Part shown: in pieces, positions 25,511-32,674 of the stretch
How the letters are laid out: every line of letters begins with the position of its first letter
Position numbering within the stretch: position 1 is the stretch's first letter
Source of the DNA: the human T2T-CHM13v2.0 reference genome, Homo sapiens
DNA length: 64,000 nucleotides
Assembly: GCF_009914755.1 (NCBI RefSeq)
Contig: NC_060936.1
Direction: 5' to 3' (one strand)
The notes under the pieces: model-generated
What the model was told of the DNA's origin: nothing
The model's database searches: none
The model's input: only the letters and a program-made list of their open reading frames with translations
Program-made: the position numbers and the translations under genes

Positions 25511-28026
25511 AGCATAGTCTGGTATGTTACACGCGAGTGTATCAGCCCAGCCATTGCTTTCTAGAATTTATTTGTGTTTTCCCTTTCTTCCCTGTTACCC
25601 GCCTGCTGCCTGACATGAGACTTTGCTTTTCTCTGCAGAGCCATGGTACCAAGAAGGGCACTGTGCTCGCTATGGCCTGTCATCAGAGTTGCAGACTGAG
25701 TAATGAGACAGAACATGACACAACTGTGGCCTGCATCTGAGTGATGAGTGGAAGTGAGTGAGTGGGTCTACTGAGAGGAGGAGTAGGGGGAAGAAAGTGT
25801 ATGTCCTTTACTGGAGCCATAATTGCTGAAAGCGAGAGAGACAAGGAAGAAGGGGTAGGGAAGAAGAGGGGAAAGGGAAGAGGAATGGAGGTGGACAGAC
25901 TAAACCAGGACATGCCAAAAACATTTTTGTGGAAATATCACCTTGAAGAGCCTTTGAGACTCTGCAGGAAAAAAAAAAAAAATCATACAAGTCTCTCTCC
26001 ATCCCAAGAATGTGAAGTAAACGGGTCTGGGGCTGGGGTGGGAAAAGAATTGCATCCTTGATTTAGAGAGGTCATCCTCAATGTAAGTCAACAAGCCCTG
26101 GCCCTGAGCGCACGGTGTTCACTTCCCAGCTGAACACGTTCCAGAGGCAACAAGTGCAGCTGCTGACAATTCCATGTGACTTCAGACCTGGTGGCCTCCG
26201 ATGGCTTCCAAGGATTTCTCCCAGCTCCCCCGCAACAGAACTAAAGAGCCCCAGTTGGGGGACAGTATAGGTGCCAGGACTTCTGTGTGATCTGGTCAAA
26301 GCCCCTTGGTCCCTGTTAATAAGAGGCGCCACACGAGAGAATTTCCAAGGTCCCTTGCCTCCTTGACCCTCTATGAGAGATGGAGGCCTCTAGGGTAGGA
26401 GTAGAGGTGCTTGGGGTGGGGACGGTTTCCTAATATGAGCCTGTGAGCACCTCAATGAATGTCTCTCCAGGCCTAAAAAGAATTTTAAGACTTGCAAAGC
26501 CCTTGCTATGGGCAGGCTCTGTCCTGAACACTTTATATGTATTTATATTAACTCTTTAAACCTCATCACATTCTAATGGGGGTACTATTACTATCCCATT
26601 TTAGAACTGAGGAAACTGAAGCACAGAGATGCTGGGTGATTTGCCCAAGATCACACAGCCTGCAAGTGGTAGGGTTTGAAACCAGGCTGTCTAGCTCCAA
26701 AGTCCTAGCTTCTAGGAGTCTTGAAATTAATTACAGGTCAAAGCATTTTCAGGCTCCCAGAGTGACCTTGGAAATGCTGCTCAACTCTTGGGAGCCTGAG
26801 TTTCCTTCCTGCCCCTAGGGCATAGGGACCCATGAGGACGAGCACAGTCAAACATGGCAATGGTGCTGTTACCTACCTGTGGGTCTGCCCTCAGGTAAAG
26901 GGTTCAGACCCAGCTTTGGCTATTTTACTCCAAAACACAGAGATCCATCAAAGTACACAATAAGGGATGGCCTGCCCCTGAGGTTCAGAGAGGCCATCTG
27001 TATTTCCTGAGGCTGAACAGCAAGCTGGAGACTGCTCAGGCACCCTGATCCCTCAAGGAAAGGTGTTTCCTCCCATTCTCAGTCTGAAGGGGCTGCCAAG
27101 AGCATCCCTGGCTGAGGTTAGGGCAGGAAACCACATGTCTTTCACTTCCTTTTCTCCAGAAACCTCGTCTGAACTCCAGGCCCAGTGGGGAGGCCCTGAT
27201 TCAGAGAGACTCCTGATCACAGGGCAGAGGCTTAGCCTTAAAGCCACCCCAAATCATCCCTTTCCCCCAATTCAAACAGGGTGGGGAGGAGACACGGGGG
27301 CTGGGACTCTCTCACCACTAATTTGGGACAAATTGCTCCTCCCACTGTGACCCTCGGTTTCTTTATCTGTAAAATGAAGATAGTCTCTATAGAGTCCTGT
27401 GAGGATTAAGGATAAAATCAGAGGAGAGAACACGGGCTACCACAGGTTCATAAGCTAGGGGAGTCCCGGGAAGAAAGTTGCAAATATGAACCCGAAGACT
27501 AGGGGTCACGAAGCTCAGTGGCTGGAGGTCACATTCCCTTTGCTCTGGGGAGACTGGGAGGGGGGGGGATGAAGAAAGGGTCCTGGGCCTGATGTCACAT
27601 CTTCTTGGGTAACTCGGGAGGCCAAGAGGCTTATTTCATGTCTGGAAGAGAATAATATGTCTAAGCACTTAGCTTATATGGTCCCATTTAATTCTTCTAA
27701 GGTGGGTCCTATTATGATTACCATTTGACAGGTGAGGAAATAAAGCACAGAGAGGTTAAGTAACTTACCTAAAGTCACACAGCTATTAAACGGTAAAGGT
27801 GGGATTGGAACTCCAGAGAACAGCTCTTAATCTCTCGGGTGGTATCTGCCAGCCACCCCTGGTCGGGCAAAAGAAGGCCAGGGCCTCCCTCCCTCCCCAC
27901 GTCGGGTCTCCTCTGGTCCGGTCCCTGAACACACACACGTGCGCACCCACAGCTGCCCAATGCGGAAGAGCCCTTGGGTCCCCGCGGTCCCACTGCCCGG
28001 ACGGACAGACCGAGGCCGCCGCCCAC

Positions 28027-28335
28027 CTTCTGGTGCTTGCGCTCCTTCTCGATGCGGTCCATCCTCTCCAGGCGCAGGCGGTCCAGCTCCAGGCGCAGCT
28101 CGTCCAGCTCGGGCGCGACGTGGTGGCGGCTGACCAGCACCTCCAGGATCTCCAGCACGCGCACGACCTTGGGCATGAGGCGCGCGATGGCCTCGCAGCC
28201 GTGCTGGTCAATGACCCGCTCGAACTCGTGGCCCACAAGCGACGCGATGTCGTACACGTCCATGACGGTCAGCTCGGCCACGTTCTTCTCCAGCGCCGAC
28301 TCGGCCGCCAGCGCCGACCCCCGCTCCTCCTCCAT
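28027..28335 (-). CDS. RILPL1: RILPL1 (Rab-interacting lysosomal protein-like 1) coding exon 1, 103 codons, RH1 domain
   Basis: Translation MEEERGSALAAESALEKNVAELTVMDVYDIASLVGHEFERVIDQHGCEAIARLMPKVVRVLEILE...KERKHQK matches the RILPL1 N-terminus. ATG (CAT at 28333-28335) is in a strong Kozak context gccATGG. Donor AAG/GTGGGC at 28027/28026, phase 0. Confidence 0.97.
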
Positions 28336-29350
28336 GGCCACCCTCCTGGCCTGTCCCCCGCCCCGCAAACTCGTGCAACTCCCAAACTTGCCGCTGTCGA
28401 GGGCCGGGCCGGCCGGGCCCAGCCTGGGCCGCGGGCGGGCGCGCTCAGCCGGCGCTGGGGCGAGGGCGCAGCGGGCAGCGGGCGGCGGGCGCGGGCGCGG
28501 GCACGGGCGGCGGCGCGGGGTGTGCGGGCCCGGGGTCTGGGCGCCCGGCTCGGCCCGGAGCTGCTCCCGAGTGGGCGGCGGCGGCGGCGGCGGCGGCGGC
28601 GGCAGCGGGGAGGGCGCGCGCGTGCGCAGGCCCGCGGCGCCTCCCAAGTTGGGATCCGAGTTGCGCTCAATGGAGCCGGGCCGGGCGCCTCGGGGCGGTG
28701 CGGGCCTGAGGGGCGGCAGAGCGCGGGGCCGGAGAGGAAGGGCGGCCCGCGGCTCCTCCGGGAAACTTTGGCGGCGGCGGCTGCGAGGCCGGGTGATCGC
28801 TTCCCCACAGGGAGGCCGCGCGCCCCGCCCCAATCCCGGCCTGGCCAGGGGCGCGCCCGCTTTCCGCCGCCCGGGGGCGCCCCGGGGTACCCCCCCAAGC
28901 GCCGACTCCGCGGCCTGCACTCCGGGCCCCCCTCTCCAGCCGCCGGACCCGCGGCGCCCCTCACCCGTGCCCCGGCCGCCCCTCCCCCGCCCGGCGCTGA
29001 CTCCTCCCACCACCCGGCCGCCGGGAGGGGTCCAGGCCGCCCCGGGAGAGGGGGCCGGGGGCGCTGGTCTCGCGGGACGATTCGCTGCTCCGGGTAGCGG
29101 CCCCGGCCTTGGAGAGGGATGGAGGGGTCACGAGGAGGTCCCCGGGCTGGGGCTCATCCCAGGAAGAGAACGGGGACCCCCCCCGGCCCGCAGACACTCC
29201 GCGCAGACCCGGCCACCAGGCGGACTTGCAGAGGCGCCCGGAGAGGGGCCGACGTGTCGAGGAATGCTGGATCCCCGGAGCCCCAGGGCGCTCCTCCCCG
29301 AGCCACATCCATCACTGGCTCCTTGTGACATGAACGCCACTTCACAGTAG
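28334..29350 (+). CDS. Candidate antisense ORF reading the GGC repeat as polyglycine: 338 aa from ATG 28334, or 432 aa from ATG 28052
   Basis: Part of track ORF 27974..29350: MATLLACPPPRK...SRVGGGGGGGGGGSGEG...ATSQ*. The GGC units are in frame. Translation cannot be shown from sequence, and GC-rich DNA favours long ORFs. Confidence 0.5.
   Translation: MATLLACPPPRKLVQLPNLPLSRAGPAGPSLGRGRARSAGAGARAQRAAGGGRGRGHGRRRGVCGPGVWAPGSARSCSRVGGGGGGGGGGSGEGARVRRPAAPPKLGSELRSMEPGRAPRGGAGLRGGRARGRRGRAARGSSGKLWRRRLRGRVIASPQGGRAPRPNPGLARGAPAFRRPGAPRGTPPSADSAACTPGPPLQPPDPRRPSPVPRPPLPRPALTPPTTRPPGGVQAAPGEGAGGAGLAGRFAAPGSGPGLGEGWRGHEEVPGLGLIPGRERGPPPARRHSAQTRPPGGLAEAPGEGPTCRGMLDPRSPRALLPEPHPSLAPCDMNATSQ
28574..28606 (+). 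repeat. RILPL1: (GGC)10 AGC trinucleotide repeat, the OPDM4 repeat-expansion locus; normal-length allele
   Basis: Ten uninterrupted GGC units at 28574-28603 followed by AGC, about 240 bp upstream of the RILPL1 ATG. The association of RILPL1 CGG/GGC expansion with oculopharyngodistal myopathy type 4 is established knowledge. Confidence 0.93.
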
Positions 29351-30216
29351 AGCGAAGCCCTCTTGGCATTCCAGCACCACGAGTTCTCTTGTCCCAAGGC
29401 CCCCTGTCCATTTGGGCTGGCCAAATCCACTTGTCCATCAGACCCCCTCCCACTCCCGGGAGAACGTTTCCTGAACCCAGAACCCCATCCACCCTCCCCG
29501 CCCCCCACGCAGGAGTTAAGGACCCCCTTGCAAACTCACAGTCCCCTGCTTGCCCCATCAGGATTGCTCTTAGCATCCTGAGTTTTCACCGTGTGGTTGC
29601 AGGTAGGTTTCCACCGTCAGATCTTGGCTCCTTGAGGGAAGAAATCTTAATGCCCTTGTAGCCATAAAGCGCACCCCAACGTGGCACGTATTGATTAAAA
29701 ATCTAAAAGTTGGCCGGGCGCGGTGGCTCACGCCTGTAATCCCAGCACTTTGGGAGACTGAGGTGGACGAGGTCAGGAGTTCAAGACCAGCCTAGCCAAG
29801 GTGGTGAAACCCCGTCTCTACTAAAAATACAAAAATTAGCCGGGCATGGTGGCGCATGCCTGTAATCCCAGCTACTCAGGAGGCTGAGGCAGAGAGTTGC
29901 TTAAACCCGGGAGGCGGAGGTTGCAGCAAGCCGAAATCGCGCCACTGCACTGCAGGCTGGGTGACAGAGCAAGACTCCATCTCAAAATAATAATATAATA
30001 CAATAAATAAATAAATAAATAGTAAAAAAAAAAAAATTAAGGCCAGGCGGGGTGGCTCACGCCTGTAATCCCAGCACTTTGGGAGGCCGAGGTGGGAAAA
30101 TTTCTAGAGCTCAGGAGTTCGAGACCAGCCTGGCCAACATGGTGAAACCACGCCTCTACTAAAAATACAAAAATTAGCCAGACATGGTGGCATGTGCCTG
30201 TAATCCCAGCTACTCA

Positions 30217-30321
<105 letters not shown>

Positions 30322-30356
30322 TCAAAAAAAAAAAAGAAAAAAAAAAAGTAAAATTA

Positions 30357-30656
<300 letters not shown>

Positions 30657-30848
30657 TTAAAAAAAAGTCTGGTTGCAGTGACTTATGCCTGTAATCCCAG
30701 CACTTTGGGAGGCCAAGGGGGGCAGATCAGTTGAGGTCAGGAGTTCAAGATCAGCCTGGCCAACATGGTGAAACCTCATCTCTACTAAAAATACAAAAAA
30801 AAAAAAAAATTAGCCAGGCGTGGTGGCAGGCGCCTGTAATCCCAGCTA

Positions 30849-30962
<114 letters not shown>

Positions 30963-31260
30963 TCAAAATAAATAAATAAATAAATTAATTAATTAATTAA
31001 ATAAAAATTACCTGACTGTGGTGGCAAGTGCCTGTAGTCCCAGCTACTCGGGAGACTGAGGTGGAAGGATGACTTGAGTCCCAGGGAGCAGAGGTTGCAG
31101 TGAGCTGTGATTACACCACTGCACTCCAACCTGGGTGACATAGGGAGACCCTGTCTCAAAAACAACAAAAAAACTCATACGTTATCTAGCACGGTGGCGT
31201 GAGCCTGTAGTTCCAGCTACTCCAGTGGGAGGATCCCTTGAGTTCAAGAGTTCTAGTCTA

Positions 31261-31466
<206 letters not shown>

Positions 31467-31679
31467 TAGCTAGGATTACAGGCGCATGCCACCATGCCTG
31501 GCCGATTTTTTTGTATTTTTAGTAGAGAGGGGGTTTCACCATGTTAGCCAGACTGATCTCGAACTCCTGACCTCAGGCAATCTGCCTGCCTCAGCCTCCC
31601 AAAGTGCTGGGATTACAGGCATAAGCCATCCTCCCGGACTATTTTTTAATTAATATTTTTTAAAGCATCAGTTTAAATT

Positions 31680-31758
31680 TCTTTTCTTTTCTTTTCTTTT
31701 TCTTCTTCTTCCCTTCCCTCCCCTCCCCTCCCCTTTCTTTCTTCCTTTCCTTTCCTTC

Positions 31759-31817
<59 letters not shown>

Positions 31818-31857
31818 TCCTTTCTCTCTCTTTCCCTCCCTCCCTCCCTCCCTCCCT

Positions 31858-31917
<60 letters not shown>

Positions 31918-31918
31918 T
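31680..31918. repeat. Polypyrimidine compound microsatellite (CTTTT)n-(TTTC)n-(CCCT)n-(CT)n
   Basis: About 240 nt of pure C/T derived from the tail of a minus-strand Alu monomer. Confidence 0.93.
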
Positions 31919-32674
31919 CAGGGTCTAGTTCTGTTGCCCAAGGTAGTGCAGTGGTGCGATCGTAGCTCACTGCAGCCTCAAACTCCTGGGCTCAAGCGGT
32001 CCTCCCACTTCAGCCTCCTGAGTTAGCTGGGATTATAAATTTCTATTTACAGTAGATATGAGCAGATATAACTCACCTAACAAAAGCTCTTTCAAGGCTA
32101 GACACAGTGGCTTACGCCTGTAATCCTAGCACTTTGGGAGGCTGAGGTGGGCGGATCACCTCAGATCGGGAGTTTGAGACCAGCCTGCCCAACATGGTGA
32201 AATCCTGTCTCTACTAAAAATATAAAAATTAGCCGGTGTGTGGCCCGTGCCTGTAATACGAGCTACTAGGGAGGCTGAGGCACGAGAATTCCTTGAACTC
32301 AGGAGACGGAGGTTGCAGTGAGCCAAGGTCATGCCTCTTCACTCCAGCCTGGGCAACAGAGTGAGACTCTGTCTCAAAAAAACAAACAAACAAAAAAACA
32401 AAAACAAACAAACAAAAACTCTTTAAATATTGTTTTAGTGTAAAGGGGCTCTGAGGCCAAAAAGTTTCAGAACTTCTGCCTTATAACATCCTAAGAGGTA
32501 AATTTTATTATCTTATTTTACAAATGAGGAAACTGAGGCACAGAGAGGTTAAAAGGCTCACCCAAAGCCAGGAAGCTGGTGAAGGTAAATTCAGGGTCAG
32601 ACCTGCGCAGTCTGGCCTCGAGTCTGTGCCATAACCTTCTCATCCTTGTTCCTTACACGTGCTAAGCACTCTAA

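What the first reader, a model, noticed from the sequence alone, without database searches (positions are those of the whole stretch)
28052..29350. Antisense ATG-initiated ORF that reads the OPDM4 repeat as polyglycine
Seen: on the strand opposite RILPL1, one frame is open from 27974 to TAG 29348-29350, with several in-frame ATGs (28052 through 28334) upstream of the (GGC)10, which encodes Gly10. Known: GGC-expansion diseases (FMR1/FXTAS, NOTCH2NLC/NIID) act through polyG proteins from hidden ORFs, whereas on the RILPL1 sense strand this repeat is CCG. I recall antisense transcription and an antisense polyG product being reported for this locus, so the idea may not be new. Inference: an antisense RNA starting within exon 1 would make a canonical 338-432 aa Gly/Arg/Pro-rich protein that becomes long polyG on expansion. 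ATTAAA at 29694-29699 is a possible 3' end.
Basis: partly seen in the sequence, partly recalled or inferred. Interest (0 to 1): 0.85.

Follow-up and report, generated by a model that had tools for sequence, protein, structure and literature searches.

The report
Published antisense RILPL1 polyglycine ORF
The open reading frame on the strand opposite RILPL1 that reads the OPDM4 repeat as glycine is real, but it is the already published and experimentally tested asRILpolyG reading frame, so the finding is correct and not new.

Summary
On the + strand an ATG-started ORF runs 28052..29350 (432 aa) and reads the pure (GGC)10 at 28574-28603 as Gly10. Small corrections: the frame is open from 27929, not 27974. 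Boivin et al., Nat Genet 2026 (PMC12987736) show that the antisense RILPL1 GGC repeat is translated from a classical ATG into a polyglycine protein, asRILpolyG. An antibody stains the p62 inclusions of OPDM4 muscle, the protein is toxic in cells, mice and flies, and the sense CCG RNA is not translated. My additions are minor. All 7 of 7 + strand ATGs in 28052-28620 lie in the Gly frame because each mirrors an Ile or Met codon of RILPL1 exon 1. The proximal one shares the palindrome CCATGG with RILPL1's own start. No ATG precedes the repeat in the Ala or Arg frames or in any sense frame. The 248 codons after the repeat look like open GC-rich non-coding DNA. Still open: the endogenous antisense start site, which ATG is used, and why the paper speaks of peptides under 100 aa when the unspliced ORF is 338-432 aa.

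The parts
28574..28603 (+). Pure (GGC)10, the OPDM4 repeat. It reads GGC = Gly on the + strand and CCG/GCC on the RILPL1 sense strand.
   Evidence: TRF period 3, 28574-28608, 11.7 copies including the imperfect AGC GG tail. Yang 2023 gives a 30-bp repeat 3 bp upstream of the annotated RILPL1 TSS.
28052..29350 (+). Longest ATG-started ORF through the repeat in the Gly frame: 432 aa, 16.7% Gly, 15.5% Arg, 14.1% Pro, net charge +52.
27926..27928 (+). In-frame upstream stop TGA. The frame is open from 27929.
28052..28264 (+). Six distal in-frame ATGs (28052, 28175, 28187, 28211, 28247, 28262). Each is the reverse complement of C|AT at an Ile or Met codon of RILPL1 exon 1.
28334..28336 (+). ATG nearest the repeat (context tcctccATGg), inside the palindrome CCATGG shared with RILPL1's own start codon (minus strand, 28335-28333). 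It is the only in-frame ATG that gives an N-terminus under 100 aa (80 aa).
28337..28573 (+). N-terminal flank of the polyG (with the ATG, 80 aa: 17.5% Arg, net +15). It is antisense to the RILPL1 5'UTR, 83% GC, and holds no ATG in any + frame.
28604..29347 (+). 248-codon Pro/Gly/Arg-rich tail after the repeat in unspliced DNA. GC by codon position is flat, and it matches no Pfam family.
29348..29350 (+). TAG stop of the Gly frame.
29694..29699 (+). ATTAAA, the first canonical poly(A) hexamer on the + strand after the repeat. It sits at the edge of the repeat-masked block, just before an Alu-like sequence. Its use is not shown.
   Evidence: hub annotation (masked 29693-31180).
28027..28572 (-). 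RILPL1 exon 1 (RefSeq), CDS 28027-28335. The antisense ORF overlaps it.
   Evidence: Hub annotation. Searches show the minus-strand ORF starting MEEERGSAL at 28335.

Best explanation
This is the asRILpolyG reading frame of the OPDM4 locus. A + strand (antisense to RILPL1) RNA that begins left of 28334 carries the repeat as GGC. Scanning ribosomes start at an AUG in the glycine frame and read the repeat as glycine. When the repeat expands to roughly 50 to several hundred units, the product is a polyglycine protein with Arg-rich flanks that aggregates in p62-positive nuclear and cytoplasmic inclusions and is toxic to muscle. Shown by sequence here: the frame, the ATGs, the absence of stops, and the absence of ATGs in the other five frames ahead of the repeat. 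Shown in print: translation in the Gly frame only, dependence on the ATG, antibody staining in OPDM4 muscle, and toxicity in cells, mice and flies. Inferred: that the ATG used is 28334, that the unexpanded ORF has no selected function, and that the Arg-rich flanks explain the stronger nuclear localisation reported for asRILpolyG.
For: Sequence. The ORF 28052..29350 reads (GGC)10 as Gly10. All 7 of 7 + strand ATGs between 28052 and 28620 are in the Gly frame, and the only other ATG found in 27900-28620 is 27960, out of frame with a 57-codon ORF. There are 0 ATGs ahead of the repeat within the open stretch of the Ala and Arg frames and of all three sense-strand frames. This matches the published result that only the glycine frame of the antisense RNA is translated and that the sense CCG RNA is not. 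Literature, PMC12987736: N-terminal mass spectrometry, a classical ATG, and loss of expression on start-codon deletion. asRILpolyG antibody staining of p62 inclusions in OPDM4 muscle, specific to the subtype. Toxicity and inclusions in LHCN-M2 cells, more nuclear than the other polyG proteins, and no toxicity from start-less GGC RNA. Mouse and fly toxicity. Locus identity: Yang 2023 describes a 30-bp repeat 3 bp upstream of the annotated TSS. The review PMC13142886 says the repeat is CCG in the RILPL1 direction and that antisense transcription was seen by RNA-seq. A 2026 preprint lists asRILpolyG among accepted polyG peptides.
Against: The endogenous + strand start site is not documented in anything I could read. 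The published constructs are plasmid-driven (Constructs passage), so an RNA that includes an in-frame ATG in muscle rests on the antibody result and on RNA-seq data I did not see. The paper's text says the unexpanded peptides are <100 aa, while the unspliced genomic ORF is 338-432 aa. Its control-length stability experiments cover GIPC1, NOTCH2NLC and LOC642361, not RILPL1. The text also says translation starts with an acetylated methionine. By N-terminal processing rules that I recall and did not test, a Met-Ala start (28334, 28187) would normally lose its Met, which pulls against 28334. The ORF shows no coding signature beyond being open: GC by codon position after the repeat is 0.80/0.77/0.75, Pfam gives 0 families at E up to 1, and the 248-codon tail stays open in 294 of 5000 shuffles.
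Confidence: 0.9

Rival explanations
1. The long ORF is a by-product of composition and of the RILPL1 codons on the other strand. It has no function in its unexpanded form and matters only because expansion makes its product toxic. This concerns the normal allele and is compatible with the best explanation.
For: The region 27929-29350 is 76% GC. The + CGG frame (435 codons) and the - CCG frame (450 codons) are nearly as long. The 248-codon tail stays open in 294 of 5000 shuffles, analytic estimate 0.062. GC by codon position after the repeat is flat, 0.80/0.77/0.75, against 0.77/0.30/0.98 for RILPL1 exon 1. Pfam gives 0 families. Each in-frame ATG mirrors an Ile or Met codon of RILPL1 preceded by a C.
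Against: The full ATG-ORF length of 432 aa or more is reached in only 14 of 2000 and 20-39 of 2000 shuffles. The paper suggests that some of the new ORFs may encode functional microproteins, but the examples it gives are uN2C and LOC6, not asRIL. Conservation across primates could not be tested here.
Confidence: 0.75
2. PolyG is made in vivo from a near-cognate codon between 28337 and the repeat, as for FMRpolyG and uGIPpolyG, because the endogenous antisense RNA starts inside the region antisense to the RILPL1 5'UTR, downstream of every ATG.
For: In-frame near-cognate codons exist: CTG 28424 (A at -3, G at +4), GTG 28520 (G at -3), TTG 28388 (A at -3), and CTG 28346 and 28394. No stop lies between them and the repeat. 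The endogenous start site is unknown to me.
Against: In the published constructs, translation starts at a classical ATG and its deletion abolishes polyG expression. The near-cognate codons alone were therefore not sufficient there.
Confidence: 0.1
3. OPDM4 is caused mainly by repeat RNA (sense CCG or antisense GGC foci sequestering RNA-binding proteins), and the polyG protein is a bystander.
For: RNA toxicity was proposed for RILPL1-related OPDM, according to the discussion of PMC11283466 and the review PMC13142886. The sense RNA does include the repeat, through an alternative start site about 230 bp upstream (ESTs, FANTOM5 CAGE, RNA-seq).
Against: Expression of 100 pure GGC repeats without a start codon was not toxic, while asRILpolyG encoded by mixed GGN codons was toxic in cells, mice and flies. 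The original RNA-foci papers (Yu 2022, Zeng 2022) were not held, so I could not read their evidence.
Confidence: 0.1
4. The sense strand makes an N-terminally extended RILPL1 carrying polyproline. The CCG frame runs without a stop from 29127 into the RILPL1 coding frame.
For: The minus-strand CCG frame is open from 29127 to 27775 and ends at the same stop as the RILPL1 exon 1 read-through ORF, so it is in frame with the RILPL1 ATG. Sense transcripts start about 230 bp upstream.
Against: No in-frame ATG lies upstream of the repeat on the sense strand. [quoted passage not shown]
Confidence: 0.03

Closest known systems
asRILpolyG (Boivin et al., Nat Genet 2026, PMC12987736)
   Same: Same locus, same strand, same frame, ATG-initiated, polyG on expansion. 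It is the same object as the finding.
   Different: The paper's text calls the unexpanded products small (<100 aa), whereas the unspliced genomic ORF in this window is 338-432 aa. The exact ATG and C-terminus are in a figure and supplements that I could not read.
uN2CpolyG (NOTCH2NLC uORF, NIID/OPDM3) and LOC6polyG (LOC642361 lncRNA, OPML)
   Same: The GGC repeat lies inside an unannotated ORF and is read as glycine; p62-positive inclusions. ATG start: stated for LOC642361; for NOTCH2NLC an upstream AUG start codon is stated in PMC13078011.
   Different: Those ORFs lie on the sense strand of their host transcripts. Here the ORF is antisense to a protein-coding exon, and its start codons are mirror images of the host's Ile and Met codons.
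FMRpolyG (FMR1, FXTAS) and uGIPpolyG (GIPC1, OPDM2)
   Same: A GGC/CGG repeat in a 5' leader is read in the glycine frame into an aggregating protein.
   Different: They start at near-cognate codons: ACG for FMR1 and CTG for GIPC1. They are on the sense strand.
JPH3 antisense CAG transcript giving polyglutamine in Huntington disease-like 2 (Wilburn et al. 2011)
   Same: A repeat read as a toxic homopolymer from an antisense transcript of the host gene.
   Different: Different repeat and amino acid. I saw only the title, in the reference list of PMC8918734; the comparison is otherwise recalled.

Membership tests
polyG-disease ORFs (GGC repeat inside an unannotated ORF) | The repeat is read as GGC (Gly) in the frame of an upstream start codon | tested here: met
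   seven in-frame ATGs, with GGC in frame with 28052.
polyG-disease ORFs (GGC repeat inside an unannotated ORF) | No stop codon between the start codon and the repeat | tested here: met
   the Gly frame is open from 27929 to 29350.
polyG-disease ORFs (GGC repeat inside an unannotated ORF) | The repeat-bearing strand is transcribed and the RNA includes the start codon | not testable with these tools
   No human transcript data are held. The review PMC13142886 reports antisense transcription found by RNA-seq, citing Zeng 2022. I did not see the start site.
polyG-disease ORFs (GGC repeat inside an unannotated ORF) | The polyG product with locus-specific flanks is detected in patient inclusions | not testable with these tools
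   Reported in PMC12987736 section 8. Not an analysis of mine.
OPDM4 locus (RILPL1 repeat) | A 30-bp CGG/GGC repeat immediately upstream of the annotated RILPL1 TSS on chr12 | tested here: met
   Repeat at 28574-28603 against RefSeq exon 1 end 28572 (hub annotation). Yang 2023 gives a 30-bp repeat 3 bp upstream of the gene.
Conserved protein-coding gene | Coding signature: codon-position bias, a known domain, conservation | tested here: not met
   GC by codon position after the repeat is flat and Pfam gives 0 families. Conservation was not tested, as no vertebrate genomes are held.

The most novel reading that the evidence does not exclude
The native, unspliced antisense RNA would encode not a micropeptide but a 338-aa, strongly basic protein (up to 432 aa). 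Its 248-aa Pro/Arg/Gly-rich tail and Arg-rich 80-aa head, rather than polyG alone, would account for asRILpolyG being the most nuclear and among the most toxic of the polyG proteins. Its start codon would be the mirror image of RILPL1's own start in the palindrome CCATGG, so any variant at that site would change both proteins at once.
Probability: 0.2. Interest if true: 0.35.

Novelty: already known. Interest (0 to 1): 0.15.

Why it matters
The locus matters medically: it explains how a repeat that is CCG in the RILPL1 mRNA can cause the same polyglycine inclusion disease as the GGC repeats of NOTCH2NLC, GIPC1 and FMR1. That point has already been made and tested in print (PMC12987736), so this finding adds no new biology. 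The residual value lies in three details. First, any unspliced + strand RNA starting between 27961 and 28334 meets an AUG in the polyG frame first, because of how RILPL1 exon 1 is coded. Second, the other five frames have no ATG ahead of the repeat. Third, the size of the native product and the endogenous antisense start site remain undocumented in the text I could read.

Tried and rejected
I could therefore not identify the ATG used or the C-terminus. A text search of the paper for the first residues of the 28334 product found 0 occurrences, which says nothing because figures are not held. The two original OPDM4 papers were not held (Yu 2022; Zeng 2022). Pfam scan of the 432-aa ORF: 0 families at E up to 1. 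Rfam on 27000-32000: one match, Metazoa_SRP at 30813-30966, inside the repeat-masked block and unrelated to the ORF. A crude splice-donor consensus scan after the repeat gave only weak candidates (best 28793 and 28698, scores about 5 bits), so it neither supports nor excludes a spliced short ORF. I considered the large protein-database searches and a structure prediction and did not run them. The ORF is low-complexity, no annotation of it is expected, and the result would not change the verdict. Primate conservation could not be tested because the genome tools hold prokaryotes only. Passages read in PMC13023157, PMC11903759, PMC13078011 and PMC8918734 added nothing on the antisense ORF.

Full report
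**Observation**

The window sequence and a standard-code ORF listing confirm a + strand ORF from ATG 28052 to TAG 29348-29350. A pure (GGC)10 lies at 28574-28603 and is in frame with 28052, so it is read as Gly10. In-frame ATGs ahead of the repeat are at 28052, 28175, 28187, 28211, 28247, 28262 and 28334, giving products of 432 down to 338 aa.

Two corrections apply:
- The frame is open from 27929, after TGA at 27926-27928, not from 27974.
- The repeat begins 2 nt past the RefSeq end of RILPL1 exon 1 (28572), so it lies just outside the RefSeq gene.

ATTAAA at 29694-29699 exists and is the first canonical poly(A) hexamer on the + strand after the repeat.

**Is it more than chance?**

Only partly. 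The stretch 27929-29350 is 76% GC.

| Test | Result |
|---|---|
| Dinucleotide shuffles of 27700-29600: ATG-ORF of 432 aa or more | 14 of 2000 |
| Same shuffles: ATG-ORF of 338 aa or more | 79 of 2000 |
| Same shuffles: open stretch of 473 codons or more | 39 of 2000 |
| Shuffles within 50-, 100- and 200-nt blocks: 432 aa or more | 34, 20 and 39 of 2000 |
| Same block shuffles: 338 aa or more | 196, 165 and 209 of 2000 |
| 248 codons after the repeat stay open | 294 of 5000 shuffles (analytic 0.062) |
| 80 codons between ATG 28334 and the repeat stay open | 2705 of 5000 shuffles |

Two other frames across the repeat are almost as long: the + CGG frame at 435 codons and the - CCG frame at 450 codons. 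GC by codon position after the repeat is flat at 0.80/0.77/0.75, against 0.77/0.30/0.98 for RILPL1 exon 1. Pfam finds nothing at E up to 1. The ORF therefore has no coding signature of its own. What matters is the arrangement of start codons, frame and repeat.

**Anatomy**

- All 7 of 7 + strand ATGs between 28052 and 28620 are in the glycine frame. The only other ATG in 27900-28620 is 27960, out of frame, with a 57-codon ORF.
- The reason is mechanical. Each in-frame ATG is the reverse complement of C|AT, where AT begins an Ile or Met codon of RILPL1 (residues 1, 25, 30, 42, 50, 54, 95) and the C is the preceding base.
- The ATG nearest the repeat (28334) lies in the palindrome CCATGG, which is also RILPL1's own start on the other strand.
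- No ATG in any + frame lies between 28337 and the repeat.
- Within their open stretches, the Ala and Arg frames of the + strand and all three frames of the sense strand have no ATG ahead of the repeat.
- It follows that any unspliced + strand RNA starting between 27961 and 28334 meets an AUG in the polyG frame first.

**What is known**

A full-text search led to Boivin et al., Nat Genet 2026 (PMC12987736). I read its outline and abstract, passages and sections 7, 8, 9 and 13. It reports the following:
- The antisense RILPL1 sequence with about 50 GGC is translated in the glycine frame, with negligible alanine or arginine products.
- The sense RNA with a CCG expansion gives no detectable translation.
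- Mass spectrometry places the start at a classical ATG upstream of the repeat, and deleting the start codon abolishes expression.
- An antibody against the protein, named asRILpolyG, stains p62-positive rimmed vacuoles and intranuclear inclusions in OPDM4 muscle but not in other subtypes.
- The protein forms inclusions and is more nuclear than the other polyG proteins. It is toxic in muscle cells, mouse muscle and flies, while GGC RNA without a start codon is not toxic.

A 2026 preprint already lists asRILpolyG among accepted polyG peptides. The term asRILpolyG occurs in 2 papers of the library.

Other papers support the identity of the locus:
- The review PMC13142886 (passages) states that the repeat is CCG in the direction of RILPL1, lies immediately upstream of the annotated gene and is transcribed. 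It also says that antisense transcription was seen by RNA-seq, citing Zeng et al. 2022.
- Yang et al. 2023 (PMC10590002, passages) place the 30-bp repeat 3 bp upstream of the annotated start site. They describe an alternative sense start about 230 bp upstream, supported by ESTs, FANTOM5 CAGE and RNA-seq.

The sequence anatomy above fits each of these results.

**What remains open**

- I could not see the endogenous + strand start site. The published constructs are plasmid-driven.
- The paper's text says the unexpanded peptides are under 100 aa. Among the in-frame ATGs only 28334 gives an N-terminus under 100 aa (80 aa), and it would leave at most 9 residues after Gly10. The unspliced genome has no stop for 248 codons. 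Either the RNA is spliced or ends early, or the general statement does not cover asRIL. The control-length stability experiments cover GIPC1, NOTCH2NLC and LOC642361, not RILPL1.
- A crude donor scan after the repeat found only weak candidates.
- The text also says translation starts with an acetylated methionine. By N-terminal processing rules that I recall and did not test, Met-Ala starts (28334, 28187) usually lose the Met, which pulls the other way.
- Fig. 2d and the supplements would settle these points. The two original OPDM4 papers were not held.

**Mechanism, with status**

- Shown by sequence: the frame, the ATGs, the absence of stops, and the absence of competing ATGs.
- Shown in print: glycine-frame translation from an ATG, the product in patient inclusions, and toxicity.
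- Inferred by me: the unexpanded ORF is a by-product of GC richness and of RILPL1's codons rather than a selected gene (about 75%). The start is 28334 (about 55%).
- Also inferred: the Arg-rich flanks contribute to nuclear accumulation. The 80-aa head is 17.5% Arg with net charge +15, and the tail is 15.7% Arg and 19.8% Pro.

**Rivals**

Each of these is given low odds for the reasons in its field:
- initiation at a near-cognate codon (CTG 28424, GTG 28520 and others);
- pure RNA toxicity;
- a polyproline extension of RILPL1 from the sense strand. The CCG frame is in frame with the CDS.

**Verdict**

Interest is low as a discovery, although the locus is medically important.

Noticed in passing
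window 28333-28338: RILPL1's start codon and the antisense ATG nearest the repeat share the palindrome CCATGG, so one variant there would hit both start codons.
   Followed up: partly
window 27775-29127, minus strand: The sense-strand CCG (Pro) frame is open from 29127 and runs in frame into the RILPL1 coding sequence with no stop and no upstream ATG. Near-cognate initiation on transcripts from the upstream start site would give a polyPro-extended RILPL1. The 2026 paper reports no detectable sense translation.
   Followed up: partly
window 31261-31386, + strand: The annotated MIR3908 lies on the same strand as the antisense ORF, about 2.7 kb downstream of the repeat, and AATAAA at 31294 lies inside it. 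Rfam at gathering threshold gave no miRNA match in 27000-32000. Whether it shares a + strand transcript with the antisense RNA is unknown.
   Followed up: no
window 30813-30966, + strand: A Metazoa_SRP match (71 bits, gathering score 70) lies inside the repeat-masked block 29693-31180. It most likely reflects an Alu element, which derives from 7SL RNA (the derivation is recalled).
   Followed up: no
window 28770-28781: A second short (GGC)4 run lies downstream of the main repeat. In the ORF frame it is read as CGG (Arg3 in ...KLWRRRLRG...), not Gly.
   Followed up: partly
window 28066-28110: A 21-nt unit repeated 2.1 times lies inside RILPL1 exon 1. On the sense strand it corresponds to the repeated LELDRLRLE-like stretch of the protein.
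   Followed up: no
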